DNA from: a virus
Strand: one strand, 5' to 3'
Length of the DNA stretch: 8,054 nt
UHGV virus genome: UHGV-0324772
The position numbers and the translations under genes were made by a program. The notes beneath the pieces were generated by a model that was not told where the DNA came from, did no database searches, and saw nothing but the letters and a program-made list of their open reading frames with translations. Positions 2,688 through 8,054 of this stretch are shown one piece after another (within the stretch, counting starts at the first letter, position 1; each line of letters starts with the position of its first letter).

Positions 2688-3015
2688 GTGGTTGGCTTTT
2701 CGCTGATTATCATGCCGGATATGACCCGCTACGCTGGTGATGGGGCAGGGATTAAGGCCATTACAGGCGGTGACAAGGTGGCAATTGACCCGAAACACAA
2801 AGCCCCCTATTCAACGCGTATTCCGGCAGTAGTGCTGGCGGTTAACAATAACGCCATGTCATTCAGTGACCGCAGCGGGGGGATCTCACGTCGTCGGGTG
2901 ATATTCAATTTTTCGGAAGTTGTACCGGAGAACGAACGCGATTCGATGCTGGCGGAAAAAATAGAAGGTGAGCTGGCGGTAGTGATTCGTCATCTGCTTA
3001 CACGGTTTGTTTTTT
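2688..3015 (+). CDS. P4 alpha-type helicase-domain fragment on the opposite strand to the rest of alpha (probable misassembly or inversion)
   Basis: Track ORF 2688..3017. ITGGDKVAIDPKHKAPYSTRIPAVVLAVNNNAMSFSDRSGGISRRRVIFNFSEVVPENERDSMLAEKIEGELAVVIRHLLTRF matches the region after Walker B in P4/D5-type helicases. Its 3' end (2976-3013) is the reverse complement of 2649-2686 with one mismatch. The stop codon is formed partly by adapter bases. Confidence 0.6.
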
Positions 3016-3073
3016 AATGATACGGCGACCACCGAGATCTACACTCTTTCCCTACACGACGCTCTTCCGATCT
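3016..3073 (+). other. Illumina TruSeq universal (P5) adapter, 58 nt, exact: sequencing/assembly artefact
   Basis: AATGATACGGCGACCACCGAGATCTACACTCTTTCCCTACACGACGCTCTTCCGATCT read directly at 3016-3073, preceded by TTTTT (3011-3015). Confidence 0.97.
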
Positions 3074-4064
3074 ACCAGCAGAGGGGGATTCGCTGGATGA
3101 ATAACTGCCAGTCGTACCGGTTCGCCAGCACCATGAATAATGCCGCCAGTACGCGATCTGCCTTGCGGTCATTCTCAGCCACCGAACGGCGCAACCACTT
3201 CCAGAAATTCGGCGCATGTGTTGCCAGCGTTTCCCCCTCTGCTGGTGGGCTGAAAGGTAATTCACTGGCAATTAACAACCAGTCGTTTTTGTTATGCTCC
3301 CGAAAATTACCAGTTCTGGTATCAAATACCCCGTTACTGAATCCAATCAGGTTACGGGCTGTATTCCCCATTACAGGCAAACTTAACTTCATGGTATCTA
3401 CCGCCGATTTAATAGCGTTCTGCGAATAGCTGATCTCCGCATCAATGAAAATCTGCGCCATAGCACGCTGTAACTCTTTATCCTGAACCGGCTCCCATAC
3501 AACGCCGTTGTAATGATGAACGGTGTCAGAGTCGGCATTGATTGCCAGTTCGCCGCCGTAATGTGCAAGGAGAACTTCACCGCGCTGGCTGGCCCCCATC
3601 TGATTCAACGCCAAAGATGAAGCACGCTCGTCATTTTTGCGCTCTGCCTTCTTCACTGGCAGTTCAATCACCAGACTTTCCCCATGCTCCGCTTCAGCTT
3701 TTAGGCCGACAAGGCGCGGAGTCCAGTCTTCAGGCTCTCGATCAACAAAGCTACGGTAACAACGTGCTTCCTTTACGCCTGCAATAGCAAGTAATGTCGC
3801 AACCTTCGTCAGACTTTTCTCTGCAATCTTTCCGGCACGATAAACACGCACATAATGACGGCCTTCATCGATAATTTGCATATCATCCAGGTTTTCCAGT
3901 TGTTCCGTACCCAGAATGACTGGTGGTGTATCATCTGCTGCAATATGCTTACCTGCCCATTCATTCCATTCTTTTGCATGGCTCCAGGCATCACTGCCAG
4001 CAAAAATGATGACTTCCGTCATTTTGTCGCGCGGTTGGTATTTTAAGTTCGGAGCACGTTTCAT
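3072..4064 (-). CDS. P4 alpha-type primase/helicase, N-terminal primase region (reading frame cut off at the adapter junction)
   Basis: Track ORF, 330 aa. Call rests on continuity with the alpha helicase and C-terminal fragments, position in the operon and the adjacent P4-type iterons; an early EVIIFAGSDAW segment is primase-like but not a confident motif match. The terminal stop (3072-3074) is created by adapter bases, so the real protein continues. GGAGG RBS 6 nt upstream; start overlaps the upstream stop (ATGA at 4061-4064). Confidence 0.75.
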   Translation of the reverse strand: MKRAPNLKYQPRDKMTEVIIFAGSDAWSHAKEWNEWAGKHIAADDTPPVILGTEQLENLDDMQIIDEGRHYVRVYRAGKIAEKSLTKVATLLAIAGVKEARCYRSFVDREPEDWTPRLVGLKAEAEHGESLVIELPVKKAERKNDERASSLALNQMGASQRGEVLLAHYGGELAINADSDTVHHYNGVVWEPVQDKELQRAMAQIFIDAEISYSQNAIKSAVDTMKLSLPVMGNTARNLIGFSNGVFDTRTGNFREHNKNDWLLIASELPFSPPAEGETLATHAPNFWKWLRRSVAENDRKADRVLAALFMVLANRYDWQLFIQRIPLCW

Positions 4065-4348
4065 TTGTTACCTCCGGCAACTAACATTGCCCGAATTTTA
4101 CGGATATAGCCTGCGGCACGCCTCTGATTATCTGTCTTGCAATTTTTTACCAGAATGAAATCTCTTTCGAACTGCTGACGCGGCATAACACATTCAAAAT
4201 CATAACCATCACGCAAATAAGAGACACGACGATCATCAACCGAAATAATCTTTACCCGATAGCCATAGCTGTCTTTGAAAATATCCCCAAGGCTGATTTT
4301 TGAATGAGTTTGACCGCTGGCAATAAAGCCAGAAAATTTATTTTTCAT
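4061..4348 (-). CDS. Hypothetical small protein (95 aa), alpha-operon member
   Basis: Track ORF; same strand; stop overlaps the alpha start codon (translational coupling). No motif recognised. Confidence 0.5.
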   Translation of the reverse strand: MKNKFSGFIASGQTHSKISLGDIFKDSYGYRVKIISVDDRRVSYLRDGYDFECVMPRQQFERDFILVKNCKTDNQRRAAGYIRKIRAMLVAGGNK

Positions 4349-4351
4349 TTT

Positions 4352-4576
4352 TTATTCTCCGGTATAGCTCTGGTCGTGTATTTTTATAGCTTCATCCAGC
4401 TCTTTGATGACAGGATCAAGTAACGTAATTAACGCTCCAGCTAAATTAGCATCCCGTTCATCGTGTTCCGCATTTGTTGTCCCATCAAGCCAGGTTGATA
4501 AGATTTCTCGCATATTTTTGCCACAAACGAGCGCGTTTTCAGCATGTGTCAGCACTTTAAAATAAAGATCATTCAT
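4352..4576 (-). CDS. Hypothetical small protein (74 aa), alpha-operon member
   Basis: Track ORF; start overlaps the upstream ORF end by 8 nt; acidic, helical-looking sequence. Confidence 0.45.
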   Translation of the reverse strand: MNDLYFKVLTHAENALVCGKNMREILSTWLDGTTNAEHDERDANLAGALITLLDPVIKELDEAIKIHDQSYTGE

Positions 4577-4934
4577 GGCACACCTCCTGACGAATACGGG
4601 CGGCGAATATCATCACGTAGCCAGTTGGGGATTGCAGCCGGGCTTCCTGTTCGCTGGCGGCCTCGATGTGTATTACGCGTGGTTGTGCGGTGCTCAGGGC
4701 GATAAAACGCCAGATGAAATTGTTTTCGCATTTCTGAATAAACAGCGTGTTTTCTTCACGCCCTTTCCAGAAAGCCGCAGTATAGCCCATCTCCTTAACC
4801 ATCTTGCGGGCATCAACCAGCGTGTCAGCGGCTACATGTACCGTAGTTGCTCCATCTGCCATGCGGTCGTGGTGTAGTGCCAGAAAGGTGTATATAAATT
4901 TAGGGTGAGTTTGGGTATGCTGTGTTCCAGCCAT
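4569..4934 (-). CDS. Hypothetical protein (121 aa), first gene of the alpha operon
   Basis: Track ORF; GAGG 8 nt upstream of ATG 4934; sits downstream of the predicted minus-strand promoter. Confidence 0.5.
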   Translation of the reverse strand: MAGTQHTQTHPKFIYTFLALHHDRMADGATTVHVAADTLVDARKMVKEMGYTAAFWKGREENTLFIQKCENNFIWRFIALSTAQPRVIHIEAASEQEARLQSPTGYVMIFAARIRQEVCHE

Positions 4935-4996
4935 AATCGTTACCTCATTTAACGGGTTGGTTAGACGCCTCGATGGTGTTCCCGCACGTCGAGGCG

Positions 4997-5076
4997 TTGC
5001 ATTTTCCTAAACACGTATGTAATGTGTCATCACACATTAACACATTACATCGGGTGTAATTGACGTGTCAACACAC
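4997..5076. promoter_or_regulatory. Divergent promoter region with repeated operator-like half-sites (ACACATTA / TGTAATGT)
   Basis: Plus strand: TTGCAT (4997-5002), 17 nt, TAATGT (5020-5025). Minus strand: TTGACA (complement of 5066-5071), 18 nt, TAATGT (complement of 5042-5047). Inverted repeat atgtaatgtgt (5017-5027) / acacattacat (5040-5050), plus acacatta (5032-5039) and gtgtaatt (5054-5061). Confidence 0.4.
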
Positions 5077-5244
5077 AAAAATCAAAGACGTGGTAATCCT
5101 CCGTTCCAGTTTCGGTTAGATCCTGAGTTGAGGGAGTTGATGGAGCAAGCACAGCAAGTAGATGGAGACGAATCTTTAGCAGCCTGGATTAAAAGGATTA
5201 TTCGCAAAGAACTACAGCAACGCGGATATGAAGTCAAAATTTAA
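5065..5244 (+). CDS. Small ribbon-helix-helix (Arc/CopG-like) putative transcriptional regulator; start uncertain (GTG 5065 or ATG 5140)
   Basis: Below the track's length cut-off. Frame open from 5041 to TAA at 5242-5244. Translation ...PPFQFRLDPELRELMEQAQQVDGDESLAAWIKRIIRKELQQRGYEVKI has a beta-strand then two helices, as in RHH proteins. Divergent from the alpha operon, convergent with the TIR-like gene. Confidence 0.4.
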   Translation: MSTHKNQRRGNPPFQFRLDPELRELMEQAQQVDGDESLAAWIKRIIRKELQQRGYEVKI

Positions 5245-5319: not shown

Positions 5320-6195
5320 CTAAACTGCGTAACCAGTAGCTCGCAAGTCTTTAATAATGCTATATGCTACTTCTTCAATAGAAGAATTGAATTTTTTATA
5401 AATAAGACCATTCAAATCACTTGGAATCACTACATCACCTGTGTATAGACAACAAACCTTAGAACGACCTAATTTCCCTACGAAATAACCAAATTCAAAC
5501 ATTACATTTGGTCGTGCACGTAACTCCTTTTCTCTTTCATTATCAGGTAAAGAGTCTTGCGGCAATAAATAAGCGATCTCATCAGGTGTGAGAAGAATGA
5601 ATGCGAAACCAACATCACTATTTGCTTCAAATTTCTCAATCACTGTCTGGCCTACATCAGCTTGCCTATGGAGAACAATAGGTTCTAAGCCAATTTCTCT
5701 TAAAAACACCTCTAAGTTGGTTTTTGATATTTCATCTCTTCCATGAACAATGAATACTTTTTTGGTTTTTACCGCTGAACTCTGAGGTACTTCAATATTT
5801 TCTTCAACAACTTTGGAAGATATAGGAATTAACTCCAGTCGCTCCATAATCGACTCTAGTTTTCTTATCTTACTCTGGAGTTTACGCGTAGCCTCACTGA
5901 TTTTTTCTCCCAAGGAAGTCTCGTACAATGAAATAACACCAAATGCCCCACCTTCATATTCTTCTTTGAAATCATCATTTGTGAAACTACGCTTCAGTAG
6001 CTCAGCATTAAAATCACTCCATTTCCTGTAATCAGCATTAAACAGCTCCAAGTCACTATTGTTATTTATGCTTTTCTGTAGGAGTAATAATCCTTTTTGA
6101 ATTCTGTCTTGAATTTTATCTTTCATATCATCTCTTGATATGATTAGTTCACAAACAGTTTTCATTTCTACGCTATTTTTTTTTCGAGTAGCCAT
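5320..6195 (-). CDS. TIR-like (COG4271/PF10137-type) domain protein with an unassigned N-terminal domain; candidate anti-phage NADase effector
   Basis: Track ORF, 291 aa. Residues about 145-291 carry the pattern I associate with TIR-like nucleotide-binding proteins: KKVFIVHGRD, GLEPIVLHRQ, TVIEKFE, VGFAFILLTPDE, RARPNVMFEFGYFVGKLGR, IPSDLNGLIY. N-terminal about 140 aa is helical with no TM segment or known motif. Good RBS (AAGGGTG, 5 nt, ATG). Visibly AT-rich compared with flanks. Confidence 0.7.
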   Translation of the reverse strand: MATRKKNSVEMKTVCELIISRDDMKDKIQDRIQKGLLLLQKSINNNSDLELFNADYRKWSDFNAELLKRSFTNDDFKEEYEGGAFGVISLYETSLGEKISEATRKLQSKIRKLESIMERLELIPISSKVVEENIEVPQSSAVKTKKVFIVHGRDEISKTNLEVFLREIGLEPIVLHRQADVGQTVIEKFEANSDVGFAFILLTPDEIAYLLPQDSLPDNEREKELRARPNVMFEFGYFVGKLGRSKVCCLYTGDVVIPSDLNGLIYKKFNSSIEEVAYSIIKDLRATGYAV

Positions 6196-6231: not shown

Positions 6232-6459
6232 TTATGTCCGCCATTCCCCCCTAATCCATGCCTGAACTTCGGAGAGACGGTAAGCTACCGCAGTAGCGCC
6301 AATCTTGATCCGCTTAGGAAATTTTCCTTCCTTCTCCAGCTTCCAGCGTGTGCTGTTCGCAAGAGTGGTTAGCTCCCGACATTCTTTCTCACGGATCATA
6401 CGATCAATGTTAGGAATGTACTCCAGACCCTTTTTATCAACAATTGCCATTTTTTTCAT
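6232..6459 (-). CDS. alpA: AlpA/Vis-family small DNA-binding regulator or excisionase-like protein
   Basis: 75 aa; the central segment resembles AlpA-family (PF05930-type) prophage regulators; lies 1 nt downstream of the integrase stop on the same strand. Confidence 0.7.
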   Translation of the reverse strand: MKKMAIVDKKGLEYIPNIDRMIREKECRELTTLANSTRWKLEKEGKFPKRIKIGATAVAYRLSEVQAWIRGEWRT

Positions 6460-6460
6460 G

Positions 6461-7696
6461 TTAACCAGCCTTTTGTTTGAGGATTGTCACTTTTGAATCA
6501 GCACCTGCGATGCTATTGAGATATGTAGTCCAGAGTTCCAGAGCATCCAGTTTTTTAGCCATAAACTTACTCCGATTGTAAACACCTGCCACGCCAGGTA
6601 GCGCATGGCCTAACAGTTGTTCTACTACATAAAATTCAACACCGAGATCACTTAGATGAGTAGATAGCGTTCTTCTAAGGTCGTGTAGTGACCATTGTTT
6701 TTCATGGCCCAAACGTTTACCGATTTTCCCCCCAATCTTGCTTACGCTTTCTCTAATTCGCAGACTTCCCAGCACATAACCAGTATGTTTTGTCTCTTCG
6801 TGAACATCCGTTACCCACTGTCGTAGAATTTCAGGTACTGGTCTGACGATTTCAACACCAGTTTTTGAGTGATCTTTTGGTACAGTCCAAACCCAACTTT
6901 CGAGATCCCATTCGCTCCATTCTGATAATCGGGCTTCACTCATTCGACATCCAAATACTGTACAAAGCACAAACATTTTTCGCGTGTATTCAGACATTAG
7001 TTTTAAATCAGGCTCGACAAAAATTGCCTTCCAGAGCTGGCCGAGTTCGGCTTCATCCAGAACCCGATCCCGCTTACCTGCAATCTGCCCCACATCACTC
7101 ATGCGCAAATCCTTTAAAGCATCACACGTCGCGTACTGGCGTACCCGACAAAAACGAAGAGCTAATTTAGTGTCAGAAAAAACATACGCCGCCATAACTG
7201 GTGCATTACGTTTAATTCGGTCAAAACAGTCCAGCCATTCATATAGGTGAGTGTCATTTACGGGCAAATGACCGATATAGGGAAAGATATGCTTTCGAAA
7301 TCTGCCAAGCGTTACAGCATGAGTTTTACGACGCACCTTACAGTAATTTTCATACCAGTAATTTAGTGCATCCTCCACTGTGACCGGCTTTAAGCGTTCT
7401 TCAGCCTGAATCTTAATCTGGATACGCGGATCACGTTTGTCAGCCAACCAACCACGGCACTCGTCGCGCTTTTCCCTTGCCTGTTTGAGTGACATATCAG
7501 GATATTTACCCAACGTTAGCCAGACCGGAGCAGCCCGGCCACCTGCTAACCTGTAGAAGAAAACAAAGCTCACAGCCCCTTTAGTACTCACACGAATAGA
7601 AAGCCCCTTTCCATCAGCAATGGTGATCTGCTTTTCTCTGGGTTTCCCCAGATATCCTTTAAGCGCTTTGTCGCTCAGTTTGTTCTCGCCAGCCAT
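6461..7696 (-). CDS. int: Tyrosine site-specific integrase, P4-like family
   Basis: Track ORF 6461..7747; likely start at ATG 7696 (MAGENKLSDKALKGYLGKP...ADGKGLSIRV resembles the P4-type N-terminal arm-binding domain). C-terminal catalytic signatures HDLRRT and LLGH...GVYNRS (Tyr). Confidence 0.9.
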   Translation of the reverse strand: MAGENKLSDKALKGYLGKPREKQITIADGKGLSIRVSTKGAVSFVFFYRLAGGRAAPVWLTLGKYPDMSLKQAREKRDECRGWLADKRDPRIQIKIQAEERLKPVTVEDALNYWYENYCKVRRKTHAVTLGRFRKHIFPYIGHLPVNDTHLYEWLDCFDRIKRNAPVMAAYVFSDTKLALRFCRVRQYATCDALKDLRMSDVGQIAGKRDRVLDEAELGQLWKAIFVEPDLKLMSEYTRKMFVLCTVFGCRMSEARLSEWSEWDLESWVWTVPKDHSKTGVEIVRPVPEILRQWVTDVHEETKHTGYVLGSLRIRESVSKIGGKIGKRLGHEKQWSLHDLRRTLSTHLSDLGVEFYVVEQLLGHALPGVAGVYNRSKFMAKKLDALELWTTYLNSIAGADSKVTILKQKAG

Positions 7697-7828
7697 TTTT
7701 AGCCCCAAAAAGCAATACAAGCTGCAATACAGAGATGATTGCAACACACAGATAACGAGGAAAATTCAGTGAAAGCGCCAGATAAACTTATTCTTTATTA
7801 TCAAAAGATTAAGTGTAAAAACCAGCAA

Positions 7829-8054
7829 CTACACGAAAGCCTCAGAAAGCCATGCTAAGTGCTTCGGCTTGACATATCCCGGTGTAAATTCAGAGGTGGA
7901 GCCGCCACGGGAGCGGATAACCTCACCGGAAACAATCGGCGAAACGTACAGCGCCATGTTTACCAGTCCCGGAATTTGTGAGAGATAGACTTTCTCCGTG
8001 GTGAAGGGATAGCTCTCACGGAAAAAGAGACGCAGAAACAGCGGATCAAACTTA
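7829..8054 (-). pseudogene. Lambda gpE (major capsid) N-terminal fragment, truncated; start lies beyond the window end
   Basis: Minus-strand translation from the window edge, KFDPLFLRLFFRESYPFTTEKVYLSQIPGLVNMALYVSPIVSGEVIRSRGGSTSEFTPGYVKPKH, matches lambda gpE residues about 17-82 as I recall them, then runs into 9 unrelated codons and a stop at 7829-7831. Confidence 0.7.

What the first reader, a model, noticed from the sequence alone, without database searches (positions are those of the whole stretch)
4061..4934. Three tightly coupled small ORFs of unknown function directly upstream of alpha
ORFs of 121, 74 and 95 aa overlap by 8 nt, are separated by 3 nt, and overlap alpha by ATGA, indicating one translationally coupled operon driven by the switch promoter. 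In P4-type elements this position holds small regulators and host or helper-manipulating proteins, but none of these has a motif I can assign, so they are candidates for uncharacterised helper-interference or anti-defence functions.
Basis: inference. Interest (0 to 1): 0.35.

Follow-up and report, generated by a model that had tools for sequence, protein, structure and literature searches.

The report
Small early genes of a phage satellite
The three small genes are real and form the conserved front end of the replication operon of a known kind of E. coli phage satellite (a helper-embedded PICI); two belong to described families (a P1 Icd-type cell-division inhibitor and the RgdR/DUF4222 regulator) and only the middle one has no known function, so the finding is largely ordinary.

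Summary
On the minus strand, ORFs of 121, 74 and 95 aa (4934-4569, 4576-4352, 4348-4061) overlap by 8 nt (ATGAATGA), are separated by 3 nt, and overlap the primase gene by ATGA. All have Shine-Dalgarno sites and dN/dS of 0.1-0.6.

The element is not P4. It is a gram-negative PICI of the published helper-embedded "11capE" type, inserted in a lambdoid capsid gene.

- **ORF1** is a tandem Icd-like protein. Its C-terminal domain is 45% identical to the FtsZ-binding core of P1 Icd and is homologous to the P4 Kil region.
- **ORF3** is a DUF4222 protein, 45% identical to RgdR (ECs1581), at the same position upstream of the primase. DUF4222 genes overlap the start of the replication-initiator gene in 78 of 80 satellite loci, and do so in lambdoid prophages too.
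- **ORF2** is an acidic protein from a narrow, satellite-restricted family. It lies directly upstream of DUF4222 in 68 of 80 loci. Its function is unknown.

The claim that none has an assignable motif is wrong for two of the three. I found no evidence for anti-defence or helper-interference roles.

Most likely this is the early operon of the satellite: it blocks host division (ORF1), acts on host DNA or transcription (ORF2 and ORF3), and then replicates the element. It is a new member of a known kind, of modest interest.

The parts
4569..4934 (-). ORF1, 121 aa: tandem Icd-like protein and first gene of the operon
   Evidence: NF033153 at E 9e-22, 76.9 bits against a cutoff of 25. 209 homologs are named Icd-like. 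The AF2 model (pLDDT 74) shows two beta-beta-alpha-beta repeats. dN/dS is 0.24-0.28.
4587..4718 (-). ORF1 C-terminal Icd-like domain (aa 73-116), a candidate FtsZ-binding module
   Evidence: 45% identical over 42 aa to P1 Icd residues 12-50, E 4e-6. That stretch is the experimentally defined FtsZ-inhibiting core 12-51 (PMC11897509). This is the most widely conserved DNA segment of the finding, matching about 1500 E. coli genomes.
4752..4898 (-). ORF1 N-terminal domain (aa 13-61), a diverged second copy of the Icd-like fold
   Evidence: AF2 gives the same beta-beta-alpha-beta topology with pLDDT 85-89. hhalign of the N half against the C half gives E 0.0019 over 31 columns. It is not detected by NF033153 on its own.
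4352..4576 (-). ORF2, 74 aa, acidic (pI 4.6): a satellite-restricted protein of unknown function, always paired with ORF3
   Evidence: phrog_2196 at E 4e-35. No Pfam, NCBIfam, PADLOC or PDB match. Only 17 representative clusters among 1.8 billion proteins. It ends 2-6 nt before the DUF4222 gene in 68 of 80 loci. dN/dS is 0.18-0.36. pI.
4061..4348 (-). ORF3, 95 aa, basic (pI 9.9): DUF4222 / RgdR-family protein, translationally coupled to the primase
   Evidence: PF13973 at E 3e-22. 45% identical to RgdR ECs1581, E 1e-26, with the same ATGA overlap onto the primase. ATGA coupling occurs in 78 of 80 loci. dN/dS is 0.10-0.27.
3072..4064 (-).
   Evidence: D5_N at E 4e-14 and phrog_864 DNA primase at E 1e-74. 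The gene is an intact 606 aa in E. coli E04. An adapter lies at 3016-3073.
4958..4998 (-). 5' leader: conserved hairpin (4965-4998) followed by an invariant UCUAACC motif
   Evidence: Inverted repeat. Fold energy -24.3 kcal/mol, z -2.1. Covariation across 24 distinct satellite leaders: 7 of 12 pairs change on both sides, score 0.23 against 0.068 for shuffles, 0 of 500 shuffles as high. No Rfam family matches.
5001..5050 (-). Putative operon promoter (ATGACA-18-GAAAAT) overlapped by the operator-like palindrome ATGTAATGTGT...ACACATTACAT
   Evidence: Consensus scan with 9 of 12 matches. Perfect 11-nt inverted repeat at 5017-5027 and 5040-5050. Function is inferred only.
5065..5244 (+). Divergent 59-aa YlcI/YnfO-family (Arc/ribbon-helix-helix-like) gene, the candidate repressor of the operon
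   Evidence: phrog_228 Arc-like repressor at E 2e-5 and NF041551 at E 1e-3, below cutoff. RefSeq names it YlcI/YnfO family. A divergent YlcI-like gene is present in 70 of 80 loci.

Best explanation
The three ORFs are the promoter-proximal genes of the early (replication) operon of a gram-negative phage-inducible chromosomal island. The island is of the helper-embedded '11capE' type and sits inside the major capsid gene of a lambdoid prophage. The operon order is ORF1-ORF2-ORF3-primase-orf81-ssb.

Transcription starts at a promoter in the 130-nt divergent region. That region is probably controlled by the divergent YlcI/YnfO-type ribbon-helix-helix protein. Ribosomes then pass from gene to gene through the overlaps.

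- **ORF1** carries two Icd-type domains. By homology to P1 Icd and P4 Kil, it binds FtsZ and stops Z-ring formation, so the cell does not divide while the island replicates and is packaged. As in P1 and P4, its translation probably also sets expression of the genes behind it.
- **ORF3** is an RgdR-family DUF4222 protein made in step with the replication initiator. It most likely acts on a host DNA-associated or transcription factor rather than on the initiator itself. The reason is that the same small gene is coupled to two unrelated initiator families, and RgdR has global effects on host transcription.
- **ORF2** is an acidic protein found essentially only next to satellite-type DUF4222 genes. 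It is most likely a partner or modulator of the basic ORF3.

Shown here: gene structure, homologies, synteny and purifying selection. Inferred: FtsZ binding by ORF1, the target of ORF3, the ORF2-ORF3 partnership, and the repressor role of the YlcI-like protein.
For: **Element identity**
- The region is 100% identical in E. coli E04. There it lies between two halves of a lambda gpE-like capsid gene and carries int, alpA, pri, ssb and its own capsid and decoration genes.
- This configuration is published as HE-PICI 11capE (PMC10111431).

**ORF1**
- NF033153 at E 9e-22.
- The P4 'cI/ash ORF137' (Kil part of Eta) hits the same model at E 8e-21.
- The P1 Icd core aligns at 45% identity, E 4e-6. P1 Icd 12-51 binds FtsZ and blocks division.
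- The AF2 fold is beta-beta-alpha-beta twice. The best BFVD matches are an Icd-like protein (prob 0.97) and DpnD/PcfM (prob 1.0).
- The coupling geometry matches P1 icd/ant1 (ATGA) and P4 kil/eps (8 nt).

**ORF3**
- PF13973 and 45% identity to RgdR at the same position.
- RgdR activates LEE1, represses motility, and binds DNA weakly and non-specifically (PMC3378721). It is reported in all analysed E. coli PICIs (PMC6092414).
- It overlaps the primase by ATGA in 78 of 80 IMG/VR loci.
- In 21 of 24 GTDB loci, a long ORF starts within -26 to +9 nt of the DUF4222 stop. In the set of 24 downstream ORFs scanned (21 GTDB, 3 phage), 14 are HTH_36/DnaD_N/Phg_2220_C initiators and 2 are D5_N or DUF927 primases.

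**ORF2**
- It ends 2-6 nt upstream of DUF4222 in 68 of 80 loci and in all 6 loci inspected by hand.
- The charges are opposite: pI 4.6 for ORF2 and 9.9 for ORF3.

**All three**
- dN/dS is below 0.6.
Against: - No experiment exists on any of these three proteins or on their role in a PICI life cycle.
- Published EcCICFT073 mutants cover int, alpA, pri-rep, c1499 and c1500 only.
- ORF1 is only about 45% identical to P1 Icd over 42 residues. Its N-terminal domain lacks the conserved W/R and ARIR residues.
- No C4 or isrK RNA precedes ORF1 here, unlike P1, P4 and some PICIs.
- ORF3 has LGD, not RGD, at residues 20-22. Changes at R20 alter RgdR activity.
- The ORF3 structure model is unreliable (pLDDT 57), so its fold gives no support.
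- The ORF2-ORF3 partnership rests on adjacency and charge only. Phage-type 59-aa DUF4222 genes have no ORF2 partner.
Confidence: 0.55

Rival explanations
1. One reading: the three proteins are uncharacterised helper-interference or anti-defence factors of a P4-type satellite.
For: Satellites do place host- and helper-manipulating genes in this region. P4 eps, the helper derepressor, follows the Icd-like Kil region with the same 8-nt overlap as ORF1/ORF2. ORF2 has no assigned function and its family is restricted to satellites.
Against: There are no PADLOC hits. ORF2 shows no similarity to P4 Eps, ORF151 or Cnr by profile comparison (E 0.5), and the Pfam 'Derepression' family that P4 Eps hits does not hit ORF2. 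ORF1 and ORF3 belong to families also carried by the helper-type phages themselves: P1, N15 and PY54 and lambdoid prophages. That argues against a satellite-versus-helper weapon. The defence cargo of this element is the TIR gene elsewhere.
Confidence: 0.12
2. ORF1 is mainly a regulatory leader ORF. Its translation is what matters, through coupling or anti-termination that controls how much ORF2, ORF3 and primase are made, as for P1 icd-ant and P4 eta. Cell-division inhibition would be incidental or lost.
For: P1 icd is 'apparently required for expression of ant' and overlaps ant1. Translation of P4 Eta prevents termination (PMC10111431). ORF1 is preceded by a conserved structured leader with covariation. 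The N-terminal half of Icd-like ORFs is highly variable between elements.
Against: The Icd-like domain is strongly conserved at the protein level: 17 invariant and 26 near-invariant columns among 41 homologs, with dN/dS 0.24. A pure leader would not need this. The conserved residues include those predicted to contact FtsZ in P1 Icd, namely R15, A48 and R49. The two roles are not mutually exclusive.
Confidence: 0.3
3. ORF3 is a 'moron': a host virulence and motility regulator carried for the benefit of the bacterium, as RgdR is described in EHEC. It would be unrelated to satellite replication.
For: RgdR deletion lowers T3S, adherence and sheep colonisation, and expression represses motility (PMC3378721; PMC10877973). 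The gene is therefore expressed from the resident island.
Against: DUF4222 genes occur in strains and species without LEE. They are always fused by overlap to the replication-initiator gene, in PICIs and in lambdoid prophages alike. The eponymous RGD is present in only 19 of 45 distinct proteins, and ORF3 has LGD.
Confidence: 0.15
4. ORF2 and ORF3 form a toxin-antitoxin-like or addiction pair that stabilises the island.
For: They are two small adjacent genes with opposite charge, always together.
Against: No TA family matches in Pfam, NCBIfam or PADLOC. RgdR has been expressed alone from plasmids without reported toxicity. Phage DUF4222 genes lack the partner.
Confidence: 0.05

Closest known systems
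Helper-embedded PICI '11capE' (Eco567.11capE, site E:Phage_cap_E) and gram-negative PICIs such as EcCICFT073 and EcCIEDL933 (Sp7 / OI-51)
   Same: The order int-alpA, variable zone, pri-ssb, capsid gene is the same. The element is inserted in a lambda gpE-like capsid gene and carries its own capsid gene. The sub-module ylcI-like <-> Icd-like - small ORFs - ORF2-like - DUF4222 - pri also occurs in Sakai Sp7 and in PICIs at tRNA-Pro, tqsA and cspD.
   Different: In this element the Icd-like gene is coupled directly to ORF2, with no extra small ORFs between them. Other PICIs have 1-4. The Icd-like protein here is a 121-aa two-domain form rather than the common 65-68-aa form.
P1 Icd (immI operon c4-icd-ant) and the Kil/Eta C-terminal region of satellite P4 (old 'cI/ash ORF137'); also N15 gp32 and PY54 Icd
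   Same: All share the NF033153 domain. ORF1 is 45% identical to the FtsZ-binding core of P1 Icd. In each case the gene is the first ORF of an operon and overlaps the next gene.
   Different: No C4, CI or isrK RNA lies upstream. A divergent ribbon-helix-helix-type gene and a different structured leader take its place. The downstream genes are not antirepressors (Ant, Eps) but ORF2, DUF4222 and the primase. ORF1 has a second, diverged domain.
RgdR (ECs1581 / C1493), the prophage-encoded activator of LEE type III secretion (Flockhart et al. 2012)
   Same: Both are DUF4222 proteins, 45% identical over 92 aa. Both have about 20 N-terminal residues and a basic C-terminal tail beyond the core, and both overlap the primase gene by ATGA.
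   Different: ORF3 has LGD instead of RGD at residues 20-22. It belongs to a different sequence subgroup, with a C-terminal ...RKIRAMLVAGGNK tail rather than ...MLNVFRGKK. No phenotype data exist for this variant.
59-aa DUF4222 ORFs of lambdoid prophages (for example E. coli K-12 e14, overlapping ymfM, and SfIV, SfII, mEp390)
   Same: They share the conserved core D26, G29, V32, Y44, R46, G48, Y49, C53, P56, Q59, F60, R62 and F64. They are translationally coupled to the replication initiator by 4-14-nt overlaps.
   Different: The phage forms lack the N-terminal 20 aa and the basic C-terminal helix. They have no ORF2 partner. They precede O/DnaD-type initiators instead of a primase-helicase.

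Membership tests
Icd-like host cell division inhibitor (NCBIfam NF033153; P1 Icd / P4 Kil) | Match to the family HMM above the curated cutoff | tested here: met
   76.9 bits against a cutoff of 25, E 9e-22, residues 73-116.
Icd-like host cell division inhibitor (NCBIfam NF033153; P1 Icd / P4 Kil) | Direct similarity to the experimentally defined FtsZ-inhibiting core of P1 Icd (aa 12-51) | tested here: met
   45% identity over 42 aa, E 4e-6, covering P1 residues 12-50. R15, A48 and R49 are conserved.
Icd-like host cell division inhibitor (NCBIfam NF033153; P1 Icd / P4 Kil) | Small three-strand, one-helix fold | tested here: met
   The AF2 model shows beta-beta-alpha-beta twice, pLDDT 74. The top BFVD match by probability is an Icd-like protein. 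This is prediction only.
Icd-like host cell division inhibitor (NCBIfam NF033153; P1 Icd / P4 Kil) | Preceded by a C4/CI-type antisense RNA that represses its translation (P1, P4, N15 arrangement) | tested here: not met
   No C4 or isrK match appears in the window even at E up to 10. Both are found at E 1e-15 and 1e-12 upstream of the Icd-like gene of another PICI, L013.
Icd-like host cell division inhibitor (NCBIfam NF033153; P1 Icd / P4 Kil) | Binds FtsZ and causes filamentation | not testable with these tools
   Needs expression, microscopy and two-hybrid or pull-down assays.
RgdR / DUF4222 (Pfam PF13973) | Match to PF13973 above the gathering score | tested here: met
   78.2 bits against a cutoff of 27, E 3e-22, residues 17-68.
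RgdR / DUF4222 (Pfam PF13973) | Full-length homology and synteny with ECs1581 (immediately upstream of the island primase and overlapping it) | tested here: met
   45% identity over 92 aa, E 1e-26. ECs_1581/ECs_1582 and ORF3/pri both overlap by ATGA.
RgdR / DUF4222 (Pfam PF13973) | RGD tripeptide at residues 20-22, the basis of the name | tested here: not met
   ORF3 has LGD. Only 19 of 45 distinct satellite DUF4222 proteins have RGD, so this is not a family-wide feature.
RgdR / DUF4222 (Pfam PF13973) | Activates LEE1/T3S and represses motility | not testable with these tools
   Needs reporter and motility assays.
Gram-negative PICI, helper-embedded type (HE-PICI, site E:Phage_cap_E) | int, alpA and pri co-oriented, about 11 kb, no tail or lysis genes | tested here: met
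   In the window, int is 6461-7747, alpA is 6232-6459 and pri is at 4064 and below, all on the minus strand. The same element in E04 spans about 11 kb apart from IS insertions.
Gram-negative PICI, helper-embedded type (HE-PICI, site E:Phage_cap_E) | Integrated inside a lambdoid major capsid gene while carrying its own capsid homolog | tested here: met
   Window 7829-7957(-) encodes ...MALYVSPIVSGEVIRSRGGSTSEFTPGYVKPKH, which I recognise from memory as the gpE N-terminal region. E04 has two capsid pseudogene halves flanking the element plus an intact capsid gene inside it. This matches PMC10111431.
Gram-negative PICI, helper-embedded type (HE-PICI, site E:Phage_cap_E) | Helper-dependent induction, excision and transfer | not testable with these tools
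   Experimental.
P4-like satellite | sid, delta, psu and eps genes | tested here: not met
   None are annotated in the full element. ORF2 does not hit the Derepression family, and the ORF2 family does not resemble Eps by hhalign. PMC6092414 also separates PICIs from P4.
PHROG phrog_2196 (unknown function) | Full-length match of ORF2 to the profile | tested here: met
   E 4e-35, residues 1-73 on profile positions 1-73 of 74.

The most novel reading that the evidence does not exclude
DUF4222, with its satellite-specific acidic partner ORF2, may be a general 'initiator-coupled' host-manipulation factor of temperate phages and satellites. It would counteract a nucleoid-associated silencer such as H-NS, or another global DNA or transcription factor, at the moment replication starts.

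The three published RgdR phenotypes are LEE1 up, motility down and Congo-red binding up. On my own background knowledge these resemble loss of H-NS function, so the virulence effect would be a by-product.

A corollary follows from the unannotated DUF4222 ORF hidden out of frame inside e14 ymfM. That ORF, rather than YmfM, may be the selected gene there and could contribute to the reported SOS-inducible filamentation.
Probability: 0.12. Interest if true: 0.6.

Novelty: new member of a known kind. Interest (0 to 1): 0.3.

Why it matters
The finding mainly re-labels three 'unknown' genes. The element is a published type of satellite, ORF1 belongs to the family whose P1 member was recently shown to bind FtsZ, and ORF3 belongs to the family of the EHEC virulence regulator RgdR.

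Two points could be useful to specialists.
- The Icd-like / ORF2 / DUF4222 / primase block is a fixed module of enterobacterial PICIs, yet none of its small genes has been tested in a PICI life cycle.
- DUF4222 genes are fused by overlap to replication-initiator genes of two unrelated families, in satellites and in lambdoid prophages. This suggests that the role of RgdR in virulence regulation is secondary to a replication-linked function. It also gives a concrete handle, ORF2 as a candidate partner, for finding the host target.

Tried and rejected
- **Solved structures by sequence:** searches of ORF1, ORF2 and ORF3 against the PDB found nothing meaningful.
- **Fold search of the ORF1 model:** against the PDB there was no match with E below 0.27 and TM scores were about 0.3. 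Against BFVD only Icd-like and DpnD/PcfM small proteins appeared, and neither has a known mechanism.
- **ORF3 structure:** only near-identical sequences were allowed in the alignment, and pLDDT was 57, too poor to use. I did not run a fold search on this model.
- **Word-indexed homolog searches:** these returned only 4 relatives for ORF2 and 8 for ORF3. The exhaustive HMMER search for ORF2 gave 17 clusters, and the large proteins among the hits look like coiled-coil chance matches.
- **C4/isrK immunity RNA upstream of ORF1:** absent. The weak SymR hit (24 bits against a gathering score of 61) was not pursued as a family match.
- **Leader hairpin as terminator of a cis-antisense RNA:** I considered this because the upstream tract is A-rich on the sense strand. 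The same tract fits a -10 hexamer placed 6-8 nt before the hairpin in all leaders, which is the simpler reading. The question is unresolved.
- **ORF2 as an Eps-like derepressor; ORF3 as related to P4 ORF151 or Cnr:** no significant profile similarity, and Pfam finds no DUF4222 in P4 ORF151.
- **PHROG label 'transcriptional repressor' for ORF1:** rejected as a legacy of the old P4 'cI' and N15 'cA' protein annotations. Those functions are now attributed to RNAs.
- **Annotated YmfM-like 112-aa phage ORFs as DUF4222 homologs:** they do not align. The homolog is an overlapping 59-aa ORF in another frame.
- **The search for related loci with the ORF2 alignment:** failed because there was no conserved stretch to search with.
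Full report
**1. The observation**

The ORF list and the sequence of 3500-5100 confirm three minus-strand ORFs.
- ORF1 is 4934..4569 (121 aa), ORF2 is 4576..4352 (74 aa), and ORF3 is 4348..4061 (95 aa).
- ORF1 and ORF2 overlap by 8 nt (ATGAATGA).
- ORF2 and ORF3 are in the same frame, with one codon between stop and start.
- ORF3 overlaps the next ORF (3072..4064) by ATGA.

Each start codon has a Shine-Dalgarno sequence 6-9 nt upstream (read). The downstream ORF is the N-terminal part of a D5_N / phrog_864 primase.

The three ORFs are real genes.
- Each matches a protein family.
- Pairwise dN/dS against close and distant relatives is 0.10-0.57.
- The whole block is 100% identical in several complete E. 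coli chromosomes, where RefSeq annotates the same three CDSs.

**2. What the element is**

In E. coli E04 the identical region lies in an island of about 11 kb. The island carries an integrase, an AlpA-type regulator, a TIR gene, a YlcI/YnfO-family gene, the three ORFs, primase, a small ORF, SSB, a major capsid gene, a head-decoration gene and an HTH gene. It is flanked by the two halves of a lambdoid major capsid gene inside an otherwise normal lambdoid prophage.

The right end of the window (7829-7957, minus strand) encodes the N-terminal part of a lambda gpE-like capsid protein (I recognise the sequence from memory).

This is the 'helper-embedded PICI' 11capE of Tommasini, Mageeney and Williams (PMC10111431). 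Those authors describe four zones in gram-negative PICIs: integration, Bro/dynamic, replication and late.

No sid, delta, psu or eps gene is present. Fillol-Salom et al. (PMC6092414) explicitly separate such PICIs from P4.

**3. ORF1**

ORF1 residues 73-116 match the NCBIfam 'host cell division inhibitor Icd-like' domain (E 9e-22). The protein search returned 209 relatives. They are stand-alone proteins of 65-68 aa, 121-aa forms like this one, and roughly 205-aa fusions with the Ash domain.

The PHROG label 'transcriptional repressor' is a historical artefact. The old 'cI/ash ORF137' of P4 hits the same Icd-like model at E 8e-21. So do N15 'cA' and PY54 'icd'. In these phages the immunity function is now assigned to RNAs, and the ORF is the Kil/Eta or Icd protein.

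P1 Icd (L012:4471-4692) aligns with the ORF1 C-terminal domain at 45% identity over 42 residues (E 4e-6). The aligned stretch is P1 residues 12-50. Zhao et al. (PMC11897509) showed that residues 12-51 are sufficient to bind FtsZ, abolish Z rings and filament cells. R15, A48 and R49, which they predicted to contact FtsZ, are conserved.

An AlphaFold2 model built on 41 homologs (pLDDT 74) shows the beta-beta-alpha-beta unit twice, at residues 13-61 and 73-115. A profile comparison of the two halves gives E 0.0019. ORF1 is therefore a tandem duplication with a diverged N-terminal copy.

No solved structure resembles it. Among predicted viral structures, the confident local matches are an Icd-like protein and a DpnD/PcfM-like protein, in line with a weak Pfam DpnD-PcfM hit.

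**4. ORF3**

ORF3 matches Pfam DUF4222 (E 3e-22). The only functional literature on this family concerns RgdR (ECs1581) of EHEC O157:H7.

I fetched Sakai prophage-like element Sp7. ECs_1581 sits directly upstream of the primase ECs_1582, overlaps it by ATGA, and is 45% identical to ORF3 (E 1e-26).

RgdR activates LEE1 and type III secretion, represses motility, increases Congo-red binding, and binds DNA weakly and non-specifically. Fillol-Salom et al. state that all analysed E. coli PICIs encode it.

ORF3 has LGD where RgdR has RGD. Among 45 distinct satellite DUF4222 proteins the tripeptide is RGD in 19, PGD in 12, LGD in 4, CGD in 4, NGD in 3 and IGD in 2. The motif that gave the name is therefore not a family feature. 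The invariant core is D26, G29, V32, Y44, R46, G48, Y49, C53, P56, Q59, F60, R62 and F64.

**5. A comparative result about DUF4222**

In 80 IMG/VR loci with full-length satellite-type DUF4222 genes, the primase gene overlaps the DUF4222 stop by ATGA in 78.

tblastn against phage genomes placed weaker DUF4222 matches next to replication genes. Inspection showed a 59-aa ORF, usually unannotated, that overlaps the start of the replication protein by about 11 nt.

Across 24 loci from different Enterobacterales species, 21 have a long ORF starting between -26 and +9 nt of the DUF4222 stop. I scanned a set of 24 downstream ORFs (21 GTDB, 3 phage). Of these, 14 carry HTH_36/DnaD_N/Phg_2220_C domains (lambdoid replication initiators) and 2 are D5_N or DUF927 primases.

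The same small gene is thus coupled to two unrelated initiator families. This argues, by inference, that DUF4222 acts on something common to both situations, such as a host factor or DNA, rather than on the initiator itself.

On my own background knowledge, the RgdR phenotypes resemble loss of H-NS function. I offer this only as a low-probability hypothesis.

**6. ORF2**

ORF2 matches only phrog_2196. It has no Pfam, NCBIfam, PADLOC or PDB relative, 4 relatives in the word-indexed search, and 17 representative clusters in the exhaustive search.

It is acidic (pI 4.6) while ORF3 is basic (pI 9.9).

In six loci inspected by hand (the window, Sp7, and PICIs at tRNA-Pro, tqsA and cspD), an ORF2 homolog (25-55% identity) is always the gene immediately before DUF4222. 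In the 80 IMG/VR loci it ends 2-6 nt before DUF4222 in 68, and within 70 nt in 73.

Between the Icd-like gene and ORF2, other PICIs carry 1-4 additional unrelated small ORFs. The window type has none, and ORF1 is coupled directly to ORF2. Direct coupling occurs in 17 of 80 loci.

ORF2 shows no similarity to P4 Eps, ORF151 or Cnr. A role as partner or modulator of ORF3 is inferred from adjacency and charge only.

**7. Regulation**

The 130-nt region between ORF1 and the divergent 59-aa gene holds several features.
- The divergent gene (5065-5244, plus strand) is YlcI/YnfO family and Arc-like.
- A sigma-70-like site lies at 5030-5001.
- Nested perfect palindromes lie at 5017-5050.
- A leader hairpin at 4965-4998 is followed by an invariant UCUAACC motif.

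Close relatives of the window lose similarity inside the leader. Beyond that point they carry a different YlcI-like gene and different repeats, as expected for a repressor-operator specificity module.

The hairpin is present in all leaders examined. In 24 distinct sequences, 7 of 12 pairs show changes on both sides. The covariation score is 0.23 against 0.068 in shuffles (0 of 500 as high), and slid controls are all far lower. No Rfam family matches.

Another PICI (L013, E. albertii) has isrK and C4 RNAs upstream of its Icd-like gene instead. PICIs therefore use at least two alternative control regions ahead of the same operon.

Whether the hairpin is a 5' stabiliser, a protein- or RNA-binding site, or the terminator of an antisense transcript is not resolved.

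**8. Verdict**

The operon reading is right. The functional reading should be replaced as follows.
- ORF1 is an Icd/Kil-type candidate FtsZ inhibitor, and probably also a coupling leader.
- ORF3 is an RgdR-family DUF4222 protein tied to replication initiation.
- ORF2 is its satellite-specific neighbour of unknown function.

There is no evidence for anti-defence or helper-interference roles. The defence cargo of the element is the PDC-S35 TIR gene.

The finding is a new member of a known kind and of modest interest. The open points are the role of these genes in the PICI life cycle, the host target of DUF4222, and the function of ORF2.

Noticed in passing
window 2688-3073: An exact 58-nt Illumina TruSeq universal adapter lies at 3016-3073(+). 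It translates to the familiar spurious peptide ...NDTATTEIYTLSLHDALPI. Next to it, 2688-3017(+) is an inverted copy of part of the primase gene. The window is therefore a chimeric or misassembled contig inside the primase gene. The gene is an intact 606 aa in E. coli E04.
   Followed up: yes
window 7829-7957 (-) and L001 849-1637 / 18567-18812: The island is inserted inside a lambda gpE-like major capsid gene of a lambdoid prophage and carries its own capsid and decoration genes. This is the published helper-embedded PICI configuration (11capE).
   Followed up: yes
window 4958-4998 (-): A hairpin followed by an invariant UCUAACC motif lies in the 5' leader of the Icd-like operon. It is conserved in 24 distinct satellite leaders with compensatory changes (7 of 12 pairs; covariation 0.23 against 0.068 shuffled). 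No Rfam family matches, and its function is unknown. It could be a 5' stabiliser, a regulator binding site or an antisense terminator. A second small stem (CGUUA...UAACG or CGAUA...UAUCG) flanks the Shine-Dalgarno site.
   Followed up: partly
window 5017-5244 (+): A divergent 59-aa YlcI/YnfO-family (Arc-like) gene and an operator-like perfect palindrome (ATGTAATGTGT...ACACATTACAT) overlap the -35 of the operon promoter. Gene and repeats are swapped together between otherwise near-identical islands. The gene is a candidate for the so-far unidentified repressor of gram-negative PICIs. The helper prophage carries its own YlcI/YnfO gene upstream of nohD (L001 25145-).
   Followed up: partly
L040 3002-3181 (E. 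coli K-12 NC_000913.3 1204001-1204180, prophage e14): An unannotated 59-aa DUF4222 ORF (Pfam E 9e-19) lies out of frame inside ymfM, which is annotated 'cell division inhibitor', and overlaps the ymfN start by 11 nt. Among 15-24 prophage copies, substitutions concentrate on third positions of the DUF4222 frame (735:482:2507). These are second positions of the YmfM frame, so the DUF4222 frame is the constrained one. The ymfM preprint reports no frame-specific controls.
   Followed up: partly
window 5320-6195 (-): A 291-aa TIR-domain protein (Pfam CAP12-PCTIR_TIR; PADLOC candidate system PDC-S35, E 7e-67) lies between alpA and the YlcI-like gene. It is the likely anti-phage cargo of this island. 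Close relatives carry different genes at this spot (L037-L039).
   Followed up: partly
L013 3353-3541: An E. albertii PICI has isrK (E 9e-13) and C4 antisense RNA (E 2e-15) directly upstream of its Icd-like gene, as in P1 and P4. The window type has the protein-plus-hairpin control region instead. These are two alternative control modules for the same operon.
   Followed up: partly
window 4568-4724: The DNA encoding the C-terminal Icd-like domain is the most widely shared segment of the finding, at 85-90% nucleotide identity in about 1500 of 5426 complete E. coli genomes. The flanking genes diverge much more. It may act as a recombination junction between mosaic modules.
   Followed up: no
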